A stretch of 20,482 bases of DNA from a virus, in IMG/VR virus record IMGVR_UViG_3300025128_007994; one strand, given 5' to 3'. Positions 11,842 through 20,482 of this stretch are shown here, piece by piece. The translations under genes and the position numbers were made by a program. The notes under the pieces are model-generated. The model saw nothing but the letters and a program-made list of their open reading frames with translations. It ran no database searches and had not been told where the DNA came from. Position 1 is the first letter of the stretch. Every line of letters starts with the position of its first letter.

Positions 11842-12288
11842 ATGATGAAAGTAGAAAACGGAAACAACGTCAGTGTGCACTACCGCGGCACCCTGAGTGA
11901 CGGGACAGAATTTGATAATTCAAAAACTCGCGGGGAGGCCTTGAATTTTCAAGTCGGCTCGGGAATGATGATTCCAGGGTTTGACAGCGCATTAGTGGGT
12001 ATGTCTGCAGGCGAGACAAAGAGCATTTCTTTAAGTGCGGATGATGCATATGGTGAGCGCGTTGATGACGCAGTACAGACCGTGCCAAAGTCTGCTTTCG
12101 GCGAGGGATTTGAATTTCTTGTAGGAGAGGTTGTACAAGGCAACGGCCCACGTGGCCCATTTATGGCAAAGATTCAAGAAGAAAGAGACGAAGACGTTCT
12201 TTTAGACTTTAACCACCCACTCGCCGGCGAAGAGCTTAACTTTGAGATTGAGTTGGTTTCGGTGAATGACGAAGCGTCTACATCATAG
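11842..12288 (+). CDS. slyD: FKBP-type peptidyl-prolyl cis-trans isomerase, SlyD/SlpA-like (FKBP + insert-in-flap domain, no His-rich tail)
   Basis: VSVHYRGTLSDGTEFD, MIPGFDSALVGM, AYGE and DFNHPLAGEELNFEIELV are SlyD/SlpA signature segments. Confidence 0.92.
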   Translation: MMKVENGNNVSVHYRGTLSDGTEFDNSKTRGEALNFQVGSGMMIPGFDSALVGMSAGETKSISLSADDAYGERVDDAVQTVPKSAFGEGFEFLVGEVVQGNGPRGPFMAKIQEERDEDVLLDFNHPLAGEELNFEIELVSVNDEASTS

Positions 12289-13335: not shown

Positions 13336-14031
13336 ATGAAAATCAGCAAAAAAGATCTTAAAGAGATAATCAAAGAAGAAATCGAAGCGACATTGACCGA
13401 GGAATTCGGAGATGACGCGCCCTTCCGCGCACGCGATATGGTACCGCCAAAGGTTCGTGGAAAGCTTAAAGACACATTTACTAAGATACCCAACCCAGAT
13501 CTAGAGAAGCGCAGCGCCGAAAGAAAACCTGACGCTCAAGAAAAAGCTGCATGGAAAGCCGCCGGCGGCGCCCTTAGTGTTTTTGACAAGCCAACGATAG
13601 CCCAATTTCTTGAAGACGCAGGCCTTAATATATCTCTAGAAAAATATATGGATAATATAAAGTTGGCTGTTGAAAACGATCGTTTGGGGCGCCAAATCGT
13701 CTCTCTCGTCGATGCACTGGCGTTGGCTAATAAGACAGGCTCTCGACGCGGCCACTTAAAAACCGCCAAGAAAAAATCCAGTAAGCCGCCACAATTTACA
13801 AGAGAAGCTGTAACATCGATGGAAGAAATAATTGCCGAAGAGATCGAAGTCTTAATGGCTGAGGACGACGATTGGATTCAGAAAGCAGTTGATCCCGAGC
13901 ACGAAGGCGATTGCACTCCGATGACAAAGAAAACCTGCACGCCGGCGCGTAAGGCTCTCGCCAAGAGATTCAAGAAAGCCGCGAAGAAGAAAGAAAAGCA
14001 AGGTGGAACAGGCTGGCAAGGAAAGGTCTGA
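13336..14031 (+). CDS. Hypothetical protein with MKI-x-K-x-x-L-x-x-IIKEE leader; candidate internal head protein
   Basis: GAGGA RBS; leader MKISKKDLKEIIKEEIEATLTEE; internal repeat MEEIIAEEIEVLMAE; very basic C-terminal module. Confidence 0.65.
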   Translation: MKISKKDLKEIIKEEIEATLTEEFGDDAPFRARDMVPPKVRGKLKDTFTKIPNPDLEKRSAERKPDAQEKAAWKAAGGALSVFDKPTIAQFLEDAGLNISLEKYMDNIKLAVENDRLGRQIVSLVDALALANKTGSRRGHLKTAKKKSSKPPQFTREAVTSMEEIIAEEIEVLMAEDDDWIQKAVDPEHEGDCTPMTKKTCTPARKALAKRFKKAAKKKEKQGGTGWQGKV

Positions 14032-14837
14032 TGAGAATAGCTGAATCTAAACTTCGGCAAGTCATCCGCGAAGAAGTCGAACTCCGTATTGTTAAACAGA
14101 CGATTACGGAGGTTGTTCGTGAGATGAATATGGAACTCACAGAAGAACAAAGGATGCTTCTTGAGCAAAGTGTCTTGGACGCGATAAAGTCGGCCGCAGC
14201 CAAAGCAGCGCTGCCGATTGCAGTTATGGCTGCATTGGCGTTCGGTAGTCAAGTAGCATCGAATGTTTACGATCTACAGGGCGTTGGCGTTACGCCCGCC
14301 GCGGCCGAACAGATACAGAATGCTTTTGATGCTAGCCAAAACATGTCAGATGCCAGAGCCGATTTCATTCAGAATGCTATTGACGCCAGCGGCCGCGAAG
14401 GCGAGATACCTGCAGACTTAGAAAAAGGTGTCGGTGCTGACGACGCTAAAGACATTGCAATGGATCGCCTTGAGGCTGAGTTTGCATCTGTGGGCGATAT
14501 TGAGAGCACCGGCCAAGCACAACGAACGGCAAATGGTTATCAATATATCGCTTACGTTCCGTACGACTCGTTACCTGATGGATACAAGGATACTTTTACA
14601 AGAGGCGCCGAAAAAGAAGATCTGAAACAGTATTACCAAACGATGGAAATTCAAGACTTAGCAGATTTAGTGAGGGACTTCAACAAGTGGGGCTCCGAAG
14701 GTCAAGGCGACTTCTATGACTCATCGACGAGTACTCAACTCCTCCCGTCATCCTGGTCGATAGCTTATAAGGCATTACAGGACAAAAACGCTGAACGCAG
14801 CGCCAAGGGCAAAAATACTTTTAAAGAAAACGCTTGA
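14031..14837 (+). CDS. Hypothetical protein with related leader; candidate internal head protein
   Basis: TGATG coupling; leader MRIAESKLRQVIREEVE; hydrophobic Ala-rich segment AAAKAALPIAVMAALAFG. Confidence 0.65.
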   Translation: MRIAESKLRQVIREEVELRIVKQTITEVVREMNMELTEEQRMLLEQSVLDAIKSAAAKAALPIAVMAALAFGSQVASNVYDLQGVGVTPAAAEQIQNAFDASQNMSDARADFIQNAIDASGREGEIPADLEKGVGADDAKDIAMDRLEAEFASVGDIESTGQAQRTANGYQYIAYVPYDSLPDGYKDTFTRGAEKEDLKQYYQTMEIQDLADLVRDFNKWGSEGQGDFYDSSTSTQLLPSSWSIAYKALQDKNAERSAKGKNTFKENA

Positions 14838-14862
14838 CAGCGCGCCCCTAGGGTGATATAGT
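14834..14862 (+). promoter_or_regulatory. Sigma70-type promoter with extended -10
   Basis: TTGACA (14834-39, overlapping the TGA stop), 17-bp spacer, TG-n-TATAGT (-10 at 14857-62). Confidence 0.8.
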
Positions 14863-14987: not shown

Positions 14988-17900
14988 GTGAGCATTAAGA
15001 TTGCACATGTATCGGATATTCATGTCCGAAAATTGAAGTACCATAAGGAATACCGCGCGGTATTTGAACAGTTATATGAAAAGTTGAAAGAAGAAAAGCC
15101 CGATATTATTGTTAATACTGGCGACACCTTTCACACTAAACTTGATTTGAGTCCCGAGGCGATTCGTATGATGAGTGACCTGTTTGCCAATCTGGCAGAC
15201 ATTGCACCTTATTATATGATTCTCGGTAACCACGACATGAACCTAAAAAACAGCGGCCGCTTAGATGCGCTTAGCCCGATTGTCGACAACCTAAGTCACC
15301 CTAACTTGCATTTCCATAAACATTCAGAAGTCATTGAAGTGGCTGACGGTATTGATTTGCACGTACTATCTATTGTAGATCCAGAGAACTGGCAAGAGAC
15401 GTTGCCGGCGGATCGAGTCAATATTGCCTTGTATCATGGTTCGGTCGTTGGTTCTGTTACTGACACTGGCTGGATGATGACTCATGGAGATATCGATTTA
15501 GACACAGTAGAAAAATACGACTATGCTTTACTTGGCGACATTCATAAAACTGATCAAAAGGTGGACAAGGCCGGCCGCGCGCGCTATCCGGGATCTCTGG
15601 TACAACAGAACCATGGCGAAAGCAATGATAAGGGTTACCTTATTTGGGAAATTGAAGATAAAAATGAATGGTCTACTCGCCACGTTTCGCTTACGAATCC
15701 AAAGCCTTTCATCACGATTGAGCTTACTCGTAAGGGACGAATGCCAAAGAATGTTTCTGTTCCGCTTGGTGCTCGCCTTCGTCTCGTTAGTAATAACAAT
15801 CTTCCGTTAGACATCATGAAGCGCGCAGTAGACATTGCGAAGCATAGATTCAAGCCCGAGAGCATCTCGTTTCTCAATAGGGCATCAGGAGATCGTGGCA
15901 GTGTCGAAGGCCTCGCTGATGGTCTTAAAACTGAAAACCTTAGGGATATTGAGGTGCAAGAAGAATTGATTGACGAATACCTTGCAGGCTATGAAGCAAC
16001 GCCAGAGACATTAGAAAAGGTGTTTGAATTAAATAAAAAATACAATAAGATGGTTGAAGATAACGAGGACATCTCACGAAATATCAATTGGAAATTAAAG
16101 TCTTTTGGCTTTGATAACTTGTTCAACTATGGCGAAGACAACAATATAAACTTTGAAGAACTTAGTGGCATCGTTGGCGTCTTTGGCAAAAACTTCTCCG
16201 GAAAGAGTAGCATTATCGATGCGGTGCTTTGGACTATGTTTAATTCGACATCTAAGAATGAGCGCAAAAACATCAATGTCATTAATCAAAATAAAGATTG
16301 TGCCGCCGGCCAGATTGAAATTGAGATCGGAGACAGGCTTTATAAAATTGAAAGAACCGCATCCAAGTACATTAAGCGTCTTAAGGGAGAGGAAACGAAT
16401 GAGGCAAAGACTGAACTGAACTTTGAGGTATTTGATAAAGTGATGGGTGAGACAACATCACTTAATGGCCTTACCCGTACTCAGACGGATGCGAATATTC
16501 GCAAGCATTTCGGAACACTCGATGACTTTTCAGTATCGTCGTTATCGTCCCAGCATGGCGCCCTGGCTTTTATTGATGAAGGGTCAACGCGCCGCAAGGA
16601 AATTATAGCGAAGTTCTTGGACTTGGAATTGTTTGAACAAAAGTTTAAGTTATCTAAAGAAGATTCTGTAGACCTTAAGGGCGCCCTCAAAAGACTCAGT
16701 ACCCGAAACTATGATGATGAAATTCTCAGCGCCCAGCAGGAATTGATACAGACACGCGAAGATCTCCATCACCAACAGGATAAGTGTGATAGTCTGAAGG
16801 GCGGCTTGTCTACACTGATGACTCAGTGTGCAGACACGCAGGCAAAAATAGATTCGATCCCTGCAGAAGTTATAGATATTGCTGCGATAAATAATGAGAT
16901 TAGAACCAAGGAAAACCAAACTACTGCTCTTAAGATCAAGATTGGTGATGGCGAAAAAGAACTCAAAACCAAACAAGGGGTTTACAAAAAGGTCGTTGAT
17001 TTCCTGCAAGAATTTGAGTTGGAGAAATATGAGACCTTGAGAGAAAAGATAGGCACCCATAGGGAAAGTTTAAAGCAACAAGAAGATAGTCTTGACAAAT
17101 TGTTAGATGCTCACGGCGATATTTTAAAGAAAGAAAAGTTGCTGCAAGAACATGAGTATGATCCAGAGTGCAAATACTGTTGTGAGAATGAGTTTGTCAA
17201 AGAGGCCCACGACGCGGTTACCATGAAATCGTCTGTTGAGGCAGAGCAAAAAGATGCCCTGAGATACATAGAGCGAATCTCGCGAGAAATAAAAACATTA
17301 AATCCTCAAGAAGTTGAAATACAACTGGAGAAATATGAAAATGTGCAAAAGAGCAAGCATAGCGTCTCCTCTGCTATCGCTGATTTAAATCTTGAGATTG
17401 AAAGAAACAAGAACTCCATACACACAATTGACGTGCAAATGGCCACCCTGCGATCAGCGAGAGATGAGTACGAACAAAACAAAGAAGCTATAGAAAATCT
17501 TGAAGCTCTGATATCTCAATTGAATAAGTGTCAGTTCGAAATAAAGAAAGCAAACAGCGGAATAGAAAAGTGTGAAAAACTAACCTTGGATTTTGTTAAA
17601 TCAGTGGGCTCCCTTGAGCAAAAAACAGAAAACCTTGTAAGCCAGAAAAAAGAATACATAGAACTTCAAAGAGAGTTTGCTGCATATGACTTATATATGC
17701 AATGTATGCACTCAAATGGAATTGCCTATGATATTATCAAAAAGAAGATTCCAGTAATCAATGAAGAAATTGCAAAGGTCCTTGCCAATATTGTAGACTT
17801 TGAAATCTTTTTTGAGGCATCTGGAAATAAATTTGATATTTTTATTAAGCATCCACAATATGATGAACGACCGATTGAAATGGCCTCCGGAGCAGAAAAG

Positions 17901-18155
17901 TCTTTGTCTGCAATCGCTATCCGTCTTGCACTTTTGGGTGTTTCGTCACTACCAACTGGAGACATATTTGTTCTTGACGAGCCGGGCACCGCACTTGACG
18001 AGGAAAATATGGAGGGTTTTATTCGGATCTTGGAACTAATTAAAGTGTATTTTAAGAACGTTTTGTTGATCTCTCACCTTGATTCGCTCAAAGATTGTGT
18101 TGACATGCAAATCGTGATTGAAAAGAAAGACGGATACGCAAGAGTAAATCAATAG
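14988..18155 (+). CDS. Mre11-Rad50 (SbcD-SbcC; T4 gp47-gp46-like) fusion nuclease/ATPase
   Basis: N-terminal calcineurin-like phosphoesterase motifs (SDIH, TGD, GNHD, YHG, GDIH). Then Walker A GKNFSGKS, coiled coil with central CKYC zinc hook, signature ASGAEK, Walker B VLDEP and H-loop ISH, all in one uninterrupted frame. Confidence 0.92.
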   Translation: MSIKIAHVSDIHVRKLKYHKEYRAVFEQLYEKLKEEKPDIIVNTGDTFHTKLDLSPEAIRMMSDLFANLADIAPYYMILGNHDMNLKNSGRLDALSPIVDNLSHPNLHFHKHSEVIEVADGIDLHVLSIVDPENWQETLPADRVNIALYHGSVVGSVTDTGWMMTHGDIDLDTVEKYDYALLGDIHKTDQKVDKAGRARYPGSLVQQNHGESNDKGYLIWEIEDKNEWSTRHVSLTNPKPFITIELTRKGRMPKNVSVPLGARLRLVSNNNLPLDIMKRAVDIAKHRFKPESISFLNRASGDRGSVEGLADGLKTENLRDIEVQEELIDEYLAGYEATPETLEKVFELNKKYNKMVEDNEDISRNINWKLKSFGFDNLFNYGEDNNINFEELSGIVGVFGKNFSGKSSIIDAVLWTMFNSTSKNERKNINVINQNKDCAAGQIEIEIGDRLYKIERTASKYIKRLKGEETNEAKTELNFEVFDKVMGETTSLNGLTRTQTDANIRKHFGTLDDFSVSSLSSQHGALAFIDEGSTRRKEIIAKFLDLELFEQKFKLSKEDSVDLKGALKRLSTRNYDDEILSAQQELIQTREDLHHQQDKCDSLKGGLSTLMTQCADTQAKIDSIPAEVIDIAAINNEIRTKENQTTALKIKIGDGEKELKTKQGVYKKVVDFLQEFELEKYETLREKIGTHRESLKQQEDSLDKLLDAHGDILKKEKLLQEHEYDPECKYCCENEFVKEAHDAVTMKSSVEAEQKDALRYIERISREIKTLNPQEVEIQLEKYENVQKSKHSVSSAIADLNLEIERNKNSIHTIDVQMATLRSARDEYEQNKEAIENLEALISQLNKCQFEIKKANSGIEKCEKLTLDFVKSVGSLEQKTENLVSQKKEYIELQREFAAYDLYMQCMHSNGIAYDIIKKKIPVINEEIAKVLANIVDFEIFFEASGNKFDIFIKHPQYDERPIEMASGAEKSLSAIAIRLALLGVSSLPTGDIFVLDEPGTALDEENMEGFIRILELIKVYFKNVLLISHLDSLKDCVDMQIVIEKKDGYARVNQ
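18035..18043 (+). promoter_or_regulatory. Candidate late-promoter motif ACTAATTAA
   Basis: Lies within the 3' end of the Mre11-Rad50 gene, about 125 nt before GTG 18167. Confidence 0.3.
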
Positions 18156-18166
18156 GAGATATTACC

Positions 18167-18694
18167 GTGAAAATCACCAAGAGCGAGTTAACAGGACTCA
18201 TTAAAGAAGAAATTGAAGCAGCAATCGACGAGGGTTTTATGGACTCTATCAAGGGTGCTTTTGGCATGGGCGGCGGAGATGAAGCTCCAGCAGCCGATCC
18301 AATGGCAGATGTCCCAGAAGAAGAACGTGAGGATTATGAAGAATTCCGTTCTGGCAGTAGTGCTGGCTACTATAAATGGTCCCAAGCTCGCGGCCAGAAC
18401 TTCGACGATACGAGTTCGTATGAGGCTTATGAGGACTTCTTAAAGTGGAGAAGCAAATACGTGGCAGACTCCGAGCAAGAGCGCATGGCTCGATACGATA
18501 TTGATAAAGCTAAGCAGAATCGTCGTCGCTCTGGTTCATCATCCTCGTCGTCATCCTATAAACGCGACCGTTCGGACCCCACACGCGCGTCATCGGCCGT
18601 TGGTTCCTCCAATCTTGCTTACGGCGAATCCGTAGAGAAGATTAAAGATATCATCAGAGAAGTAATTCAAGAGATGAATAAGGAATCTAAGTAA
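18167..18694 (+). CDS. Hypothetical protein with MKITKSEL..LIKEE leader; candidate internal head protein
   Basis: AGGAG RBS and GTG start; leader MKITKSELTGLIKEEIEAAIDE; second motif copy at the C-terminus (IKDIIREVIQE). Confidence 0.65.
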   Translation: MKITKSELTGLIKEEIEAAIDEGFMDSIKGAFGMGGGDEAPAADPMADVPEEEREDYEEFRSGSSAGYYKWSQARGQNFDDTSSYEAYEDFLKWRSKYVADSEQERMARYDIDKAKQNRRRSGSSSSSSSYKRDRSDPTRASSAVGSSNLAYGESVEKIKDIIREVIQEMNKESK

Positions 18695-19522
18695 ATGAAA
18701 CTTTTGTTTGAAAACTGGAATAAATTTGTTGCTGAAGATGCAGACCCGTCTAAGGTTGATCCAAAAGTATTTCCACAAAAACTTTCACAAGTACAACCGA
18801 AGGGCGCCCGCTTTATGTCGCGCACCGGCCAAGCAGATGGTTCTGGTGATGATGACACCATTAGCGTATCGTATAAACCTCAAGGGGTCGCCCCTGTTGG
18901 CAAACTGAAGCCATCTCAATCAAGCATGAATATTGAAAAGGCAATGGCTTTTGTGTTAAATATGCTTTGGGAAGGCAATCAAAAATTAAATGCCGGTGGA
19001 GATTTGGGTGCATTTATTAGCAATGACGGCTATATTATGGACGGTCACCATCGCTGGGTATCGACTGCTATGATTGATCCTACTGCTCAAGTTGGGGGCT
19101 ATTTGGTGGATTTCCCCGGTCAGCAATTGGTGGCTATTTTAAATGCAATGACAAAAGGTCTTTTTGGTGTTCAACGTGGAAAGCCAGCTACGGGCGGTTT
19201 TGATCAGTTTACTCCTGAAAAAATGAAAGAGCAATTAGTAAAATACGCTAAAGGAGGCGTATGGGGCATGAAACCAGAAGATGTTATGCAGGTCTTACAA
19301 AAATTTACTGGTGCCCAAGGTGAAGCAGCCATTGATGCAGCAGTTCAAAAAATGGCGCAAAACTTAAGTAATGTAACATTTGAAGTGCCTTCTTGGGCTT
19401 CTGGTCGTGTTGACATGCCAGTGGTAGACGATGATAACGTTGCAATTGCCGCTAATGCGCTTGATAGTGGACAAGTTAATGTTAACCCACCATACAAAAA
19501 AGGACAGAAGGCCGCAGAATAA
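18695..19522 (+). CDS. ParB/Sulfiredoxin-like domain protein with short N-terminal leader
   Basis: LKPSQ and GYIMDGHHRW motifs typical of the ParB/Srx fold; leader MKLLFENWNKFVAE. Confidence 0.75.
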   Translation: MKLLFENWNKFVAEDADPSKVDPKVFPQKLSQVQPKGARFMSRTGQADGSGDDDTISVSYKPQGVAPVGKLKPSQSSMNIEKAMAFVLNMLWEGNQKLNAGGDLGAFISNDGYIMDGHHRWVSTAMIDPTAQVGGYLVDFPGQQLVAILNAMTKGLFGVQRGKPATGGFDQFTPEKMKEQLVKYAKGGVWGMKPEDVMQVLQKFTGAQGEAAIDAAVQKMAQNLSNVTFEVPSWASGRVDMPVVDDDNVAIAANALDSGQVNVNPPYKKGQKAAE

Positions 19523-19532
19523 GGAATAAACA

Positions 19533-20482
19533 ATGAACGATAATGATAACAACGAATTTGATTTTCTGCCTCCCGCAGAACCACCTCCCGCGTTTGCGCA
19601 GGAAAAAGACAGTTACCACGAAGAAGTAGATGCAGAAGATTTCGGCATGGTTGAGGACTTCGGATTACAGATGGAATACTCTGATGAAGATTTACTCCCC
19701 GAGAACACAGCACCCTCATCTATCAATGTTGGTTTTGTCGGTGTCGGCGGTGGAGGCAATAAAATGGCGAATGCGTTTATTGAGCTAGGTTTCAATAAGA
19801 CGCTACTCGTAAATTCAACAGGTAAAGACATTCCAAAGAATGTAGAAGAGGATCACGTTGTCCTCATTCCCGATTCAGACGGGATTGGAAAAAACGTAGA
19901 ATATGGAAAAGAGGTTTTAAGTCAAAATGGTGCGATTGTTGAAGATGCCCTGCGTATCAAACTCGGTAAAGTTGATTGGTTATTCGTCCTTGCTGGCGGT
20001 GGCGGCGGTACCGGTAGTAGTGTTACCGCTCTGCACCCTGTCTTTGAGCGTTACATGCGCTCTGTGCAGTCGACTGGCAAAGTCGTTTACGTAGTATCAT
20101 GGCCAACAGCACAAGAAAACCTTAATCCCACAATCGCTCGTAATGCGTTGACGCTGGCAAATGATGTTGCCAAGCACCCGCATATCATTCTCGACAATGA
20201 ACGAGCCACACGCTTACTGCGCGGCAGAATCGGCATGCTTGGCATGTACCCTGTCGCCAACACAACTTTTGCTAAGTCACTTGCCCAAGTGTTAAAACTC
20301 TCCACTGAGGATTCACCGATCCAATCTTTCGATAGTAAAGATCTGGAAACATGTCTGGGCAATAATGGCAGAGCCTTTCTTGGTTCGACCATGATAAAAG
20401 ATCCTAATACTGGAAAGCTTGGATCGGTGATCCTTCATAACTGCATGAATCGTTCTGCATGCCCTCCGCCCAAGGGTAAGGC
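19533..20482 (+). CDS. Tubulin/FtsZ-family GTPase (PhuZ/TubZ-like), 3'-truncated
   Basis: AAGGA RBS, ATG 19533, frame open to the window end (at least 316 aa). T1 loop VGVGGGGNK (about 19740), DGIGKN, tubulin signature AGGGGGTGS (19992-20018), ILDN, and T7-like loop SFDSKD (20325-20342). Absent from the ORF track because no stop codon is reached. Confidence 0.9.
   Translation, partial: MNDNDNNEFDFLPPAEPPPAFAQEKDSYHEEVDAEDFGMVEDFGLQMEYSDEDLLPENTAPSSINVGFVGVGGGGNKMANAFIELGFNKTLLVNSTGKDIPKNVEEDHVVLIPDSDGIGKNVEYGKEVLSQNGAIVEDALRIKLGKVDWLFVLAGGGGGTGSSVTALHPVFERYMRSVQSTGKVVYVVSWPTAQENLNPTIARNALTLANDVAKHPHIILDNERATRLLRGRIGMLGMYPVANTTFAKSLAQVLKLSTEDSPIQSFDSKDLETCLGNNGRAFLGSTMIKDPNTGKLGSVILHNCMNRSACPPPKGK

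What the first reader, a model, noticed from the sequence alone, without database searches (positions are those of the whole stretch)
19533..20482. Unlisted phage-encoded tubulin/FtsZ homologue
Seen: manual translation gives an open frame with GVGGGGNK, GGGTGS, DN and a DxxD T7-like loop in the canonical order. Known: phage tubulins (PhuZ of phiKZ-like jumbo phages, TubZ of c-st) form filaments that position phage DNA and move capsids. Inference: this phage builds its own cytoskeleton. The neighbouring genes (sigma70 promoters, DnaG-type primase, RuvC, SbcCD) do not look like a phiKZ-type context, so this may be a separate viral tubulin lineage.
Basis: partly seen in the sequence, partly recalled or inferred. 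Interest (0 to 1): 0.8.

Follow-up and report, generated by a model that had tools for sequence, protein, structure and literature searches.

The report
Tubulin-like GTPase of marine T4-like phages
An abundant group of uncultured ocean phages with T4-type heads carries its own, very strongly conserved tubulin/FtsZ-family protein that belongs to none of the studied phage tubulin families, so a phage cytoskeleton probably exists outside the "nucleus-forming" jumbo phages.

Summary
Window 19533-20480 (+) is a real tubulin/FtsZ-superfamily gene. All GTP-binding and catalytic loops are in canonical order. The window end cuts off the last ~63 codons; relatives are ~380 aa.

The carrier is viral. There are at least 139 IMG/VR contigs, and complete genomes run 190-196 kb. 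A 52%-identical branch sits in 240-293 kb phages. All tested genomes have a T4-type Gp23 capsid and no chimallin.

The protein is neither host FtsZ nor PhuZ. It reaches 49.7 bits against an FtsZ cut-off of 295, and BLASTP against PhuZ gives E 0.61. Its nearest relatives, at 25-35% identity, are a metagenomic TubZ-like clade that an ESM Atlas lead labels viral. That clade's best solved match is RepX/TubZ, and its only cultured phage member found is phage G gp138.

The family forms its own long-stemmed clade. It has an FtsZ-like T1 loop, a ~65-aa acidic N-terminal arm and no C-terminal tail. It is far more conserved than the flanking genes (94% against 60-73%).

The most likely role is a GTP-driven filament made from an early, host-type promoter that organises phage DNA or particles. 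This is inferred, not shown. The upstream ParB/Srx-like gene is an accessory, not a fixed partner.

Other first readers of this scan have noted the same family on other genomes. No paper describing it was found.

The parts
19533..20480 (+). Tubulin/FtsZ-superfamily GTPase gene. The window holds 316 codons; the last ~63 are cut off by the window end.
   Evidence: ORF. Pfam PF00091 34.9 bits. Full-length relatives are 376-383 aa. AF2 model plus TubZ/CetZ/FtsZ at Z 29-32.5.
19533..19727 (+). Acidic, proline-containing N-terminal arm (aa 1-65; 19 D/E against 1 K/R), predicted disordered.
   Evidence: Composition. pLDDT 41-55 over residues 1-50. In 118 family members the arm has a median length of 63.5 aa and net charge -16.
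19557..19574 (+). N-terminal FDFLPP short motif
   Evidence: Position. Conserved in most close family members and missing in the short-armed ones. Similar Phi-D-Phi-P-(D/E) motifs occur in 30 of 76 distant relatives.
19638..19664 (+). DFGMVEDFG motif of the arm. Its D-F is invariant in the family.
   Evidence: D37, F38 and G45 are invariant in alignment A1. The [DE][FY][DEG]Phi pattern is present in 118 of 118 family members.
19740..19763 (+). T1 loop GVGGGGNK. It is FtsZ-like, unlike the GxGQxG of the sister clade.
19995..20018 (+). T4 tubulin signature GGGGGTGS
   Evidence: G157-G162 are invariant in A1. G158 and G160 are invariant across the 42-sequence A2.
20097..20117 (+). T5 loop SWPTAQE
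   Evidence: S190-T193, Q195 and E196 are invariant.
20190..20201 (+). T6 LDNE (guanine-contacting Asn)
   Evidence: D222, N223 and E224 are invariant. The stretch aligns with FtsZ IPND.
20325..20342 (+). T7 synergy loop SFDSKD, whose two Asp residues complete the GTPase site of the next subunit in a filament.
   Evidence: Aligns to FtsZ NLDFAD. D268 is invariant and D271 nearly so across the family plus the distant clade.
19521..19525 (+). AAGGA ribosome-binding site. It overlaps the stop codon of the upstream gene, 7 nt before the ATG, and the intergenic gap is 10 nt.
   Evidence: Read directly from the sequence.
18695..19522 (+). Upstream accessory gene with a weak ParB/Srx-type fold (DGHHRW). 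It is not a fixed partner of the tubulin.
   Evidence: No Pfam hit even at E 10. AF2 pLDDT 87. Best folds are sulfiredoxin Z 5.2, Atu1540 5.0, SerK 4.8 and SbnI 4.3. Found in 1 of 5 complete tubulin-bearing genomes and about 14 of 80 loci.
14834..14862 (+). Sigma70-type promoter (TTGACA-17-TATAGT with TG) ahead of the fused SbcCD gene. It is the probable start of the transcript that reaches the tubulin gene.
   Evidence: 11 of 12 match. A promoter of at least 11/12 lies within 220 nt upstream of SbcCD in 26 of 39 relatives, against 3 of 195 control windows. No + strand terminator-like site lies between it and the window end.
14988..18155 (+). Fused SbcD-SbcC (Mre11-Rad50-like) gene, the conserved upstream landmark of the tubulin locus.
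   Evidence: Pfam Metallophos plus SMC_N in one ORF. Found at position -1 to -3 in 62 loci.

Best explanation
The gene encodes a genuine, phage-borne member of the tubulin/FtsZ superfamily. It founds a distinct family carried by uncultured marine phages of 190-293 kb that have T4-type heads and no phage nucleus. It keeps every loop needed to bind GTP and the T7 loop that activates hydrolysis only inside a head-to-tail polymer. It therefore most likely assembles into GTP-dependent filaments in the infected cell. It is probably transcribed by host RNA polymerase from the sigma70-type promoter ahead of SbcCD, together with recombination and replication genes, and so early or in mid-infection. The filaments would then position or move phage DNA or assembling particles, as TubZ and PhuZ do. 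Its acidic N-terminal arm would take over the role that C-terminal tails play in TubZ, PhuZ and FtsZ: subunit contacts or docking of a partner. What is shown: identity, fold, motif conservation, viral carrier, absence of chimallin, and strong purifying selection. What is inferred: polymerisation, timing, cargo, and the role of the arm.
For: Fold and motifs: Pfam, PDB sequence hits, and the AF2 model with pLDDT 90.6 and Z 29-32.5 to TubZ/CetZ/FtsZ.

Conservation: T1, T4, T5, T6 and T7 residues are invariant across 21 family members. G73, G76, G158, G160 and D268 are invariant across 42 sequences that include 25%-identical relatives.

Viral carrier: Gp23 is present in 10 of 10 related genomes, there is one tubulin copy per genome, and completeness is 100% for G001-G004 and G008.

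No chimallin was found, and the positive control worked.

Kinship to cytomotive TubZ-type proteins: hhalign to the metagenomic TubZ-like clade scores 374 (E 6e-53, 318 columns). It scores 146 to RepX, c-st TubZ, phage G gp138 and two plasmid tubulin-like proteins, and 79 to FtsZ. The sister clade's best PDB hit is RepX at 171 bits, and 13 of the 42 scanned sequences carry Pfam TubZ-like_C.

Selection: the tubulin has 94% median identity, against 60% for SbcCD and 73% for primase, in the same 41 loci.

Expression: a conserved sigma70-type promoter, tight gene spacing and no terminator.
Against: No experiment and no cultured host exist. Polymerisation, GTPase activity and cargo are all unobserved.

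No conserved adaptor gene (TubR-like) or centromere-like repeat lies next to the gene.

The family lacks the C-terminal tail on which TubZ and PhuZ filament assembly depends.

The tree leaves its position unresolved between FtsZ and the TubZ-like radiation. An AU test does not reject a sister relation to FtsZ (p 0.64).

Direct profile hits to solved TubZ/RepX (21-28 bits) are weaker than those to CetZ and FtsZ (38-41 bits).

The promoter assignment rests on consensus matching only.
Confidence: 0.55

Rival explanations
1. Host-division interference. The protein acts as an FtsZ decoy. It would either co-assemble with host FtsZ as a tail-less poison subunit, or use its acidic N-terminal motif to occupy FtsZ-binding partners. 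Either way the cell stops dividing and grows larger for a bigger burst.
For: The T1 loop is FtsZ-type GVGGGG rather than the GxGQxG of its sister clade. FtsZ and CetZ are the best direct PDB sequence hits. There is no membrane-tether tail. The AU test does not reject grouping with FtsZ. Blocking FtsZ is a common phage strategy, as the titles and abstracts on lambda Kil, T7 Gp0.4 and T5.008 listed show.
Against: Identity to any FtsZ is only ~20%, which is too low to expect shared polymer interfaces. The score against the FtsZ equivalog model is 49.7 against a 295-bit cut-off. An inert decoy would not need an invariant catalytic T7 loop. Known phage FtsZ inhibitors are small peptides, not 380-aa GTPases. 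The closest relatives by profile are TubZ-like proteins.
Confidence: 0.2
2. Genome partition. The tubulin is the motor of a type III-like segregation system that keeps the phage genome as a plasmid-like episome during pseudolysogeny. The upstream ParB/Srx-like protein would be the DNA adaptor.
For: Kinship to RepX/TubZ partition proteins. In this window the ParB/Srx-like gene is translationally coupled to the tubulin gene. A review links jumbo-phage tubulins to pseudolysogeny (PMC7824862).
Against: The ParB/Srx-like gene is found in only 1 of 5 complete tubulin-bearing genomes and about 14 of 80 loci. Its best fold matches are enzyme-type Srx, SerK and SbnI at Z of 5.2 or less, with no detected HTH. 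No conserved TubR-like gene sits beside the tubulin. The carrier has a T4-type head and the locus lies between recombination and lysis genes.
Confidence: 0.1
3. It is a cellular FtsZ-family gene: either a host gene on a contig wrongly called viral, or a recent capture of host ftsZ.
For: JGI annotates some members as 'cell division GTPase FtsZ'. Two copies lie in MAGs named Flavobacteriaceae and Legionellales.
Against: The gene lies within complete 190-196 kb Gp23-encoding phage genomes, one per genome. The two MAG hits are 98%-identical fragments at contig ends, in two unrelated taxa, and the Flavobacteriaceae MAG has its own normal FtsZ at 348 bits. No other match was found in 185,579 species genomes. 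The nearest Atlas clusters are 87-100% viral.
Confidence: 0.02

Closest known systems
TubZ / RepX (type III plasmid and prophage partition GTPases: pXO1 RepX, pBtoxis TubZ, Clostridium phage c-st TubZ)
   Same: Both have the two-domain tubulin fold. The best structural scores are 4ei7 at Z 32.5 and 2xka at 32.3. Profile-profile probability is 99.2%. The family's sister clade has RepX as its best solved match.
   Different: T1 is GVGGGG, not GxGQxG. There is no C-terminal helix or tail. The family has a 65-aa acidic N-terminal arm instead. No TubR gene is adjacent. The carrier is a T4-type phage rather than a plasmid or plasmid-prophage. Pfam TubZ-like_C was not detected in the scanned family member.
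PhuZ of nucleus-forming phiKZ-like phages (Chimalliviridae)
   Same: Both are phage-encoded tubulin-superfamily GTPases in large myoviruses, and both are presumed to act inside the infected cell.
   Different: There is no sequence similarity (BLASTP E 0.61) and no hit to phrog_4733 or Pfam TubZ_C_2. BFVD PhuZ matches have TM of only ~0.5. No chimallin is present in the genomes.
Bacterial FtsZ (TIGR00065)
   Same: The T1 loop is FtsZ-like, the T7 loop is N/S-x-D-x-x-D, and the core length is similar. FtsZ gives the best single-sequence PDB hits (E 8e-12).
   Different: The score is 49.7 bits against a 295-bit cut-off. There is no FtsZ_C hit, no linker and no C-terminal peptide. hhalign covers only 211 columns at score 79. 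The gene is viral, not cellular.
CetZ (archaeal cell-shape tubulin/FtsZ paralogues; 3zid, 4b45, 4b46)
   Same: CetZ is the top hit of the family profile in PDB, aligned over the full length (41 bits). Z is 30.5-32.3 and identity 21-22%.
   Different: CetZ proteins are archaeal chromosomal genes. No CetZ sequence could be put into the tree, so the relation is untested phylogenetically.
Bacillus phage G gp138 ('putative FtsZ-like cell division protein')
   Same: It is the only cultured-phage member found of the wider TubZ-like clade to which the family is tied. It has been mentioned only in passing, as an FtsZ/tubulin-like GTPase with a CetZ KEGG assignment (PMC12484599).
   Different: tblastn with the marine protein does not find it in the phage collection at E 1e-5. 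It lacks the acidic N-terminal arm: its GTPase core starts at residue ~6. Its host is a Gram-positive soil bacterium.

Membership tests
Tubulin/FtsZ superfamily (Pfam PF00091, clan Tubulin) | GTPase-domain HMM score above the gathering threshold | tested here: met
   34.9 bits against 33 for the window fragment. 36.3 bits for the full-length relative. 42 of 42 family and sister-clade sequences match.
Tubulin/FtsZ superfamily (Pfam PF00091, clan Tubulin) | T1 (GxGxxG) and T4 (GGGTGS/T) nucleotide-binding loops in canonical order | tested here: met
   GVGGGGNK at aa 70-77 and GGGGGTGS at aa 155-162. Both are invariant in the family.
Tubulin/FtsZ superfamily (Pfam PF00091, clan Tubulin) | Two-domain fold: Rossmann-type GTPase domain, core helix H7, C-terminal domain | tested here: met
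   AF2 pLDDT is above 95 over residues 60-379. Z is 29-32.5, rmsd 2.4-3.3 A, over 290-320 aligned residues to TubZ, CetZ and FtsZ.
Tubulin/FtsZ superfamily (Pfam PF00091, clan Tubulin) | Acidic T7 loop that completes the active site of the neighbouring subunit | tested here: met
   SFDSKD aligns with FtsZ NLDFAD. D268 is invariant and D271 at least 90% conserved across 42 sequences.
Tubulin/FtsZ superfamily (Pfam PF00091, clan Tubulin) | GTP-dependent polymerisation | not testable with these tools
   This needs purified protein.
FtsZ (NCBIfam TIGR00065 equivalog) | Score above the equivalog cut-off (295.2 bits) | tested here: not met
   49.7 bits.
FtsZ (NCBIfam TIGR00065 equivalog) | Disordered C-terminal linker ending in a conserved partner-binding peptide | tested here: not met
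   Full-length relatives end 2-6 residues after the last strand.
PhuZ (phrog_4733; Pfam TubZ_C_2 PF22334) | Match to the PhuZ family models | tested here: not met
   There is no hit to phrog_4733 or PF22334 at E up to 1-10, whereas phiKZ PhuZ scores 395 and 128 bits. BLASTP E is 0.61.
PhuZ (phrog_4733; Pfam TubZ_C_2 PF22334) | Occurs with chimallin (nuclear shell) in the same genome | tested here: not met
   0 of 10 genomes match phrog_4795. PF25677, run on G001-G005 only, gave no hit above its cut-off. The phiKZ control scores E 1.8e-232.
TubZ (type III partition system TubZRC) | Sequence or profile kinship with TubZ/RepX | tested here: inconclusive
   hhalign to the TubZ/RepX/phage G set gives 99.2% probability at score 146, and the sister clade's best PDB hit is RepX at 171 bits. 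Against this, direct profile hits to RepX and c-st TubZ are only 21-28 bits, Pfam TubZ-like_C was not detected in the scanned family member, and the tree is unresolved.
TubZ (type III partition system TubZRC) | Adjacent small DNA-binding adaptor gene (TubR) and centromere | tested here: not met
   The immediate neighbours are variable, and no conserved small upstream partner appears across 80 loci. Centromere repeats were not searched for.
TubZ (type III partition system TubZRC) | C-terminal tail that mediates filament contacts and TubR binding | tested here: not met
   There is no C-terminal extension. An N-terminal acidic arm is present instead.
CetZ | Groups with archaeal CetZ in phylogeny | not tested
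   No CetZ sequence could be fetched as a reference. The only evidence is PDB profile and fold scores, where CetZ is tied with FtsZ and TubZ.

The most novel reading that the evidence does not exclude
A T4-type, nucleus-less phage lineage that is among the commoner large phages of the ocean runs a cytoskeleton of a previously unrecognised design. It would be a tail-less tubulin whose conserved acidic N-terminal arm (FDFLPP and DFGF motifs, recalling the D-I-P-x-F-L peptide at the FtsZ C-terminus) docks the filament onto host division or membrane proteins such as FtsA, ZipA or SepF. One protein would then both organise phage replication or assembly and disable host division.
Probability: 0.12. 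Interest if true: 0.85.

Novelty: new variant of a known kind. Interest (0 to 1): 0.6.

Why it matters
Phage tubulins have so far been studied in two settings. PhuZ acts with the chimallin nucleus of phiKZ-like jumbo phages. TubZ partitions plasmid-like prophages.

This family shows a third setting: widespread marine phages with T4-type heads, apparent reliance on host-type promoters and no nuclear shell. Its architecture also differs, with an N-terminal acidic arm, no C-terminal tail and an FtsZ-like T1 loop.

The gene is much more conserved than the neighbouring replication genes. That marks it as important to these phages and makes it a clean candidate for biochemistry.

The wider TubZ-like clade it belongs to, which an Atlas lead places mostly in viruses and which has hundreds of 50%-identity clusters, is essentially undescribed. 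Characterising it would test whether intracellular organisation by filaments is common among large phages rather than special to nucleus-formers. It would also add deep branches to the FtsZ/TubZ/tubulin tree.

Tried and rejected
- **Cultured phages and plasmids.** tblastn and megablast of the gene and the whole window against 50,697 phage records found nothing. tblastn against 72,556 plasmids found nothing even at E 0.1.
- **Own genome.** No genome is held for the window.
- **Context of distant relatives.** IMG/VR scans with P0203 and P0194 found none. That the wider clade is viral therefore rests only on the Atlas taxa, phage G and BFVD.
- **Missing references.** No CetZ, archaeal FtsZ, eukaryotic tubulin, BtubA/B or pBtoxis TubZ sequence could be brought in, so the tree has only two bacterial FtsZ as outgroup.
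- **Weak chimallin hit.** A 12-bit PF25677 hit in G004 (E 0.003, below the cut-off) was treated as noise, since M. jannaschii rang too.
- **T4 late promoter.** TATAAATA is not enriched: 2 matches against 1.17 expected, both on the minus strand.
- **Overall promoter count.** The count of sigma70-like sites in 14.5-20.5 kb is at chance level (13 against 11.2). Only the 11/12 site before SbcCD, which is conserved in relatives, was used.
- **PhuZ in the fold list.** PhuZ was not among the 50 entries shown by VIA-align. This does not exclude it further down the list.
- **ParB-tubulin module.** The idea of an obligate ParB-tubulin module was rejected on synteny.
Full report
**Observation.** The + strand has an open frame from ATG 19533 to the last complete codon at 20480. 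It is 316 codons long and the window ends before any stop. An AAGGA ribosome-binding site overlaps the stop codon of the upstream gene, and the gap between the two genes is 10 nt. The translation carries the tubulin/FtsZ loops in canonical order:
- T1, GVGGGGNK, aa 70-77
- T4, GGGGGTGS, aa 155-162
- T5, SWPTAQE, aa 189-195
- T6, LDNE, aa 220-223
- T7, SFDSKD, aa 265-270

Pfam Tubulin (PF00091) scores 34.9 bits (E 2.5e-8), above its 33-bit cut-off, even on this truncated piece. One correction is needed: the gene is cut by the window end. Relatives of 87-98% identity are 376-383 aa and stop a few residues after the last beta strand.

**Who carries it.** No genome is held for the window, and nothing in 50,697 phage records or 72,556 plasmids resembles the gene or the window. 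IMG/VR holds at least 139 contigs with close relatives. The 5.8-billion-protein collection holds more than 1000 homologues, many from Tara and other marine samples.

Four related records are rated 100% complete at 190-196 kb, and one of them has direct terminal repeats. I fetched that one, G002 (195,459 bp). It has 42% G+C, and 213 of its 229 ORFs lie on one strand. All five records tested encode a T4-type Gp23 major capsid protein (about 206 bits) and exactly one tubulin gene.

The capsid's nearest cultured relatives, at 34-45% identity, are Microcystis phage Mel-JY01, Rhodothermus phage RM378 and Flavobacterium 'immuto' phages. These are distant members of the T4-like head lineage. A 52%-identical branch of the tubulin family (P0161) sits in Gp23-encoding phages of 240-293 kb.

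Chimallin was not found in any of the ten genomes with phrog_4795, nor above the cut-off with Pfam PF25677, which was run on five of them. The same search finds phiKZ chimallin at E 1.8e-232.

In 185,579 prokaryote species genomes, the only matches were two 98%-identical fragments at contig ends. They lie in a Flavobacteriaceae MAG and a Legionellales MAG. The first of these has its own ordinary FtsZ. These are best read as mis-binned phage contigs. The gene is therefore viral and belongs to a non-nucleus, T4-type lineage.

**What kind of tubulin.**
- *Against PDB by sequence.* The single sequence hits FtsZ best (E 8e-12), then CetZ 3zid (1e-9, full length), then c-st TubZ (1e-3). PhuZ does not appear. 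A 21-member family profile puts CetZ first (41 bits), then FtsZ (38), c-st TubZ (28) and RepX (21).
- *Against curated models.* The protein scores 49.7 bits against the FtsZ equivalog model, whose cut-off is 295. BLASTP against phiKZ PhuZ gives E 0.61, and neither the PhuZ PHROG nor Pfam TubZ_C_2 matches.
- *By structure.* An AlphaFold2 model of the full-length relative, built on a 42-sequence alignment, has mean pLDDT 90.6. The core is above 95 and residues 1-50 are disordered. Foldseek ties FtsZ, CetZ and TubZ at E about 1e-19. VIA-align gives RepX/TubZ-Ba Z 32.5, CetZ2 32.3, TubZ-Bt 32.3, CetZ1 30.7, FtsZ about 29 and c-st TubZ about 29. These values are near-ties. In BFVD the best matches are unnamed 'FtsZ' proteins of uncultured Caudovirales. 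PhuZ-type proteins follow at TM about 0.5.

**Nearest relatives.** An exhaustive HMMER scan of 1.84 billion cluster representatives found only 735 hits at E of 1e-3 or better and 23 at 1e-30 or better. After the family itself come full-length proteins of 345-430 aa at 25-35% identity. They have a GxGQxG T1 loop, and many have an acidic N-terminal extension with motifs such as IPDLPLEDFEIPE.

The profile of this clade has RepX/TubZ of pXO1 as its best solved match: 171 bits over the full length, against 129 for FtsZ and 115 for CetZ2. When the clade was scanned together with seven family members, 13 of the 42 sequences carried Pfam TubZ-like_C and 33 carried Tubulin_2. The one cultured-phage member found is Bacillus phage G gp138, which has been noted only in passing in the literature (PMC12484599). 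ESM Atlas neighbours of the marine protein are all viral clusters, and several carry TubZ-like_C. This is a lead, not proof.

Profile-profile comparison of the marine family gives:

| Compared with | hhalign score | E-value | Columns |
|---|---|---|---|
| Metagenomic TubZ-like clade | 374 | 6e-53 | 318 (includes the C-terminal domain) |
| RepX, c-st TubZ, phage G gp138, two plasmid tubulin-like proteins | 146 | 5e-20 | 216 |
| Two bacterial FtsZ | 79 | 2e-10 | 211 |

The alignment depths differ, so these scores are only roughly comparable.

**Tree.** A maximum-likelihood tree of 53 sequences (LG+C20) recovers the marine family as one clade with 100% support on a long stem (1.93). It lies at an unresolved node between FtsZ and the TubZ-like radiation. 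That radiation contains RepX, c-st TubZ, PhuZ and gp138. An AU test does not reject a sister relation to FtsZ (p 0.64). CetZ, archaeal FtsZ and tubulins could not be included. My reading is that this is a separate, fast-diverged viral family, most probably an offshoot of the TubZ-like radiation, with its exact position open.

**Distinctive anatomy.** The family combines three features:
- an FtsZ-like T1 loop;
- an N-terminal arm with a median length of 63.5 aa and a net charge of -16, carrying an invariant D-F inside a DFG(F/M)xE(D/H)(F/Y)G motif (118 of 118 members) and, in most members, an FDFLPP motif near the N-terminus;
- no C-terminal tail.

TubZ, PhuZ and FtsZ all place their partner- or subunit-binding peptide at the C-terminus. 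That is established knowledge of those families. In this family the equivalent element appears to have moved to the N-terminus. This last point is inference.

**Constraint and expression.** In the same 41 loci, the tubulin is 94% identical to the window's copy (median), against 60% for the fused SbcCD and 73% for the primase. The loci were chosen by tubulin similarity, but the within-genome contrast still stands.

The gene lies downstream of the conserved SbcCD gene. It sits among variable small genes that share an 'MKIT..IIKEE' leader, and upstream of small membrane and coiled-coil genes that look like a lysis cassette. No neighbour is constant.

A sigma70-type promoter (TTGACA-17-TATAGT with TG, 11 of 12) lies at 14834-14862, ahead of SbcCD. 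No + strand terminator-like site follows it up to the window end. A promoter of at least 11/12 occurs upstream of SbcCD in 26 of 39 relatives, against 3 of 195 control windows. The T4 late motif TATAAATA is not enriched. The gene is therefore probably expressed early or in mid-infection with recombination functions. This is inferred.

**The upstream gene.** ORF 18695-19522 has no Pfam match. Its model has pLDDT 87. In a search of 48,161 chains, its best folds are sulfiredoxin (Z 5.2), Atu1540 (5.0), SerK (4.8), SbnI (4.3), KorB (3.6) and PadC (3.6). Foldseek's top 12 are all ParB-type N-domains, but at E of 0.03 or worse. This gives weak but consistent support for a ParB/Srx fold of the enzyme-like kind.

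The gene occurs in only 1 of 5 complete tubulin-bearing genomes and about 14 of 80 loci. It is an accessory gene, not the tubulin's fixed partner.

**Mechanism.** Intact nucleotide loops, an invariant T7 loop that is useful only in a polymer, and very strong purifying selection point the same way. The best-supported explanation is a GTP-driven filament that organises phage DNA or particles in the cell, with the acidic arm mediating assembly or docking.

For identity and lineage my confidence is about 0.9. For the mechanism it is about 0.5. The rivals are an FtsZ decoy that blocks host division (0.2), a partition motor for a carrier state (0.1) and a cellular gene (0.02).

**Novelty.** Searches of the held literature covered marine jumbo phages, jumbo-phage reviews, chimallin/PhuZ surveys, huge phages and the phage G paper. 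None describes a tubulin in T4-type marine phages. Weinheimer and Aylward report tubulin only in their phiKZ-like cluster (PMC9123017).

JGI pipelines already label some members 'cell division GTPase FtsZ'. Other first readers of this scan flagged the same family on other genomes. I class it as a new variant of a known kind.

Noticed in passing
window 13336-14031, 14031-14837, 18167-18694; L012 9490-9972 and 12459-13127: Many otherwise unrelated small proteins around the tubulin gene begin with the same leader, MK(I/L)(T/S)(K/E)S(E/Q)L..(I/L)IKEE(I/L). By single linkage they form the largest neighbour cluster, with 170 ORFs in 73 loci. Their gene content varies between closely related phages.
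   Followed up: partly
window 18695-19522: A 275-aa protein with an invariant DGHHRW motif and more than 800 metagenomic homologues has no Pfam or named PHROG match. Its predicted fold is weakly ParB/Srx-like (sulfiredoxin Z 5.2, SerK 4.8, SbnI 4.3). It is present in only a minority of the related phages.
   Followed up: yes
window 14988-18155: SbcD-like (Metallophos) and SbcC/Rad50-like (SMC_N) parts lie in a single 1055-aa ORF. This ORF is conserved upstream of the tubulin gene in 62 loci but is only 53-79% identical between them.
   Followed up: partly
window 14834-14862 and the equivalent sites in L001, L008, L011, L012, L018, L021: A near-consensus sigma70 promoter with an extended -10 TG lies ahead of SbcCD. 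It is conserved in 26 of 39 relatives, against 3 of 195 control windows. This suggests host-RNA-polymerase transcription of this module.
   Followed up: yes
G008 (IMGVR_UViG_3300007513_000001) 176509-180120; G011 139350-142938: The 240-293 kb relatives carry two adjacent Gp23-type capsid gene copies (~631-643 aa each). The ~195 kb phages have one.
   Followed up: no
L002-L011 downstream of the tubulin gene (positions +2 to +4): Conserved small genes lie downstream: a 66-aa protein with two hydrophobic segments, a ~130-aa protein with an N-terminal membrane anchor and a coiled coil, and a ~140-aa protein with a signal peptide and a C-terminal anchor. Together they look like a holin/spanin lysis cassette.
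   Followed up: no
L095 (PAAD01000063.1) and L096 (PBLX01000051.1): Two MAGs, one Flavobacteriaceae and one Legionellales, contain 98%-identical fragments of this phage tubulin at contig ends. These are most likely phage contigs mis-binned into MAGs, so they are not usable as host evidence.
   Followed up: partly
L098 2698-4125 (Bacillus phage G); L097 1010-2679; L099 1169-2595: In phage G, the pXO1-like plasmid and a Priestia plasmid, a ~100-aa gene sits directly upstream of the TubZ-like gene (gp137, BCA_RS00195, BUW91_RS28495), in the position of TubR. The marine family has no such constant neighbour.
   Followed up: no
window 11842-12288: A phage-encoded FKBP-type peptidyl-prolyl isomerase (Pfam FKBP_C, 75.8 bits) lies just upstream of the DnaG-type primase.
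   Followed up: no
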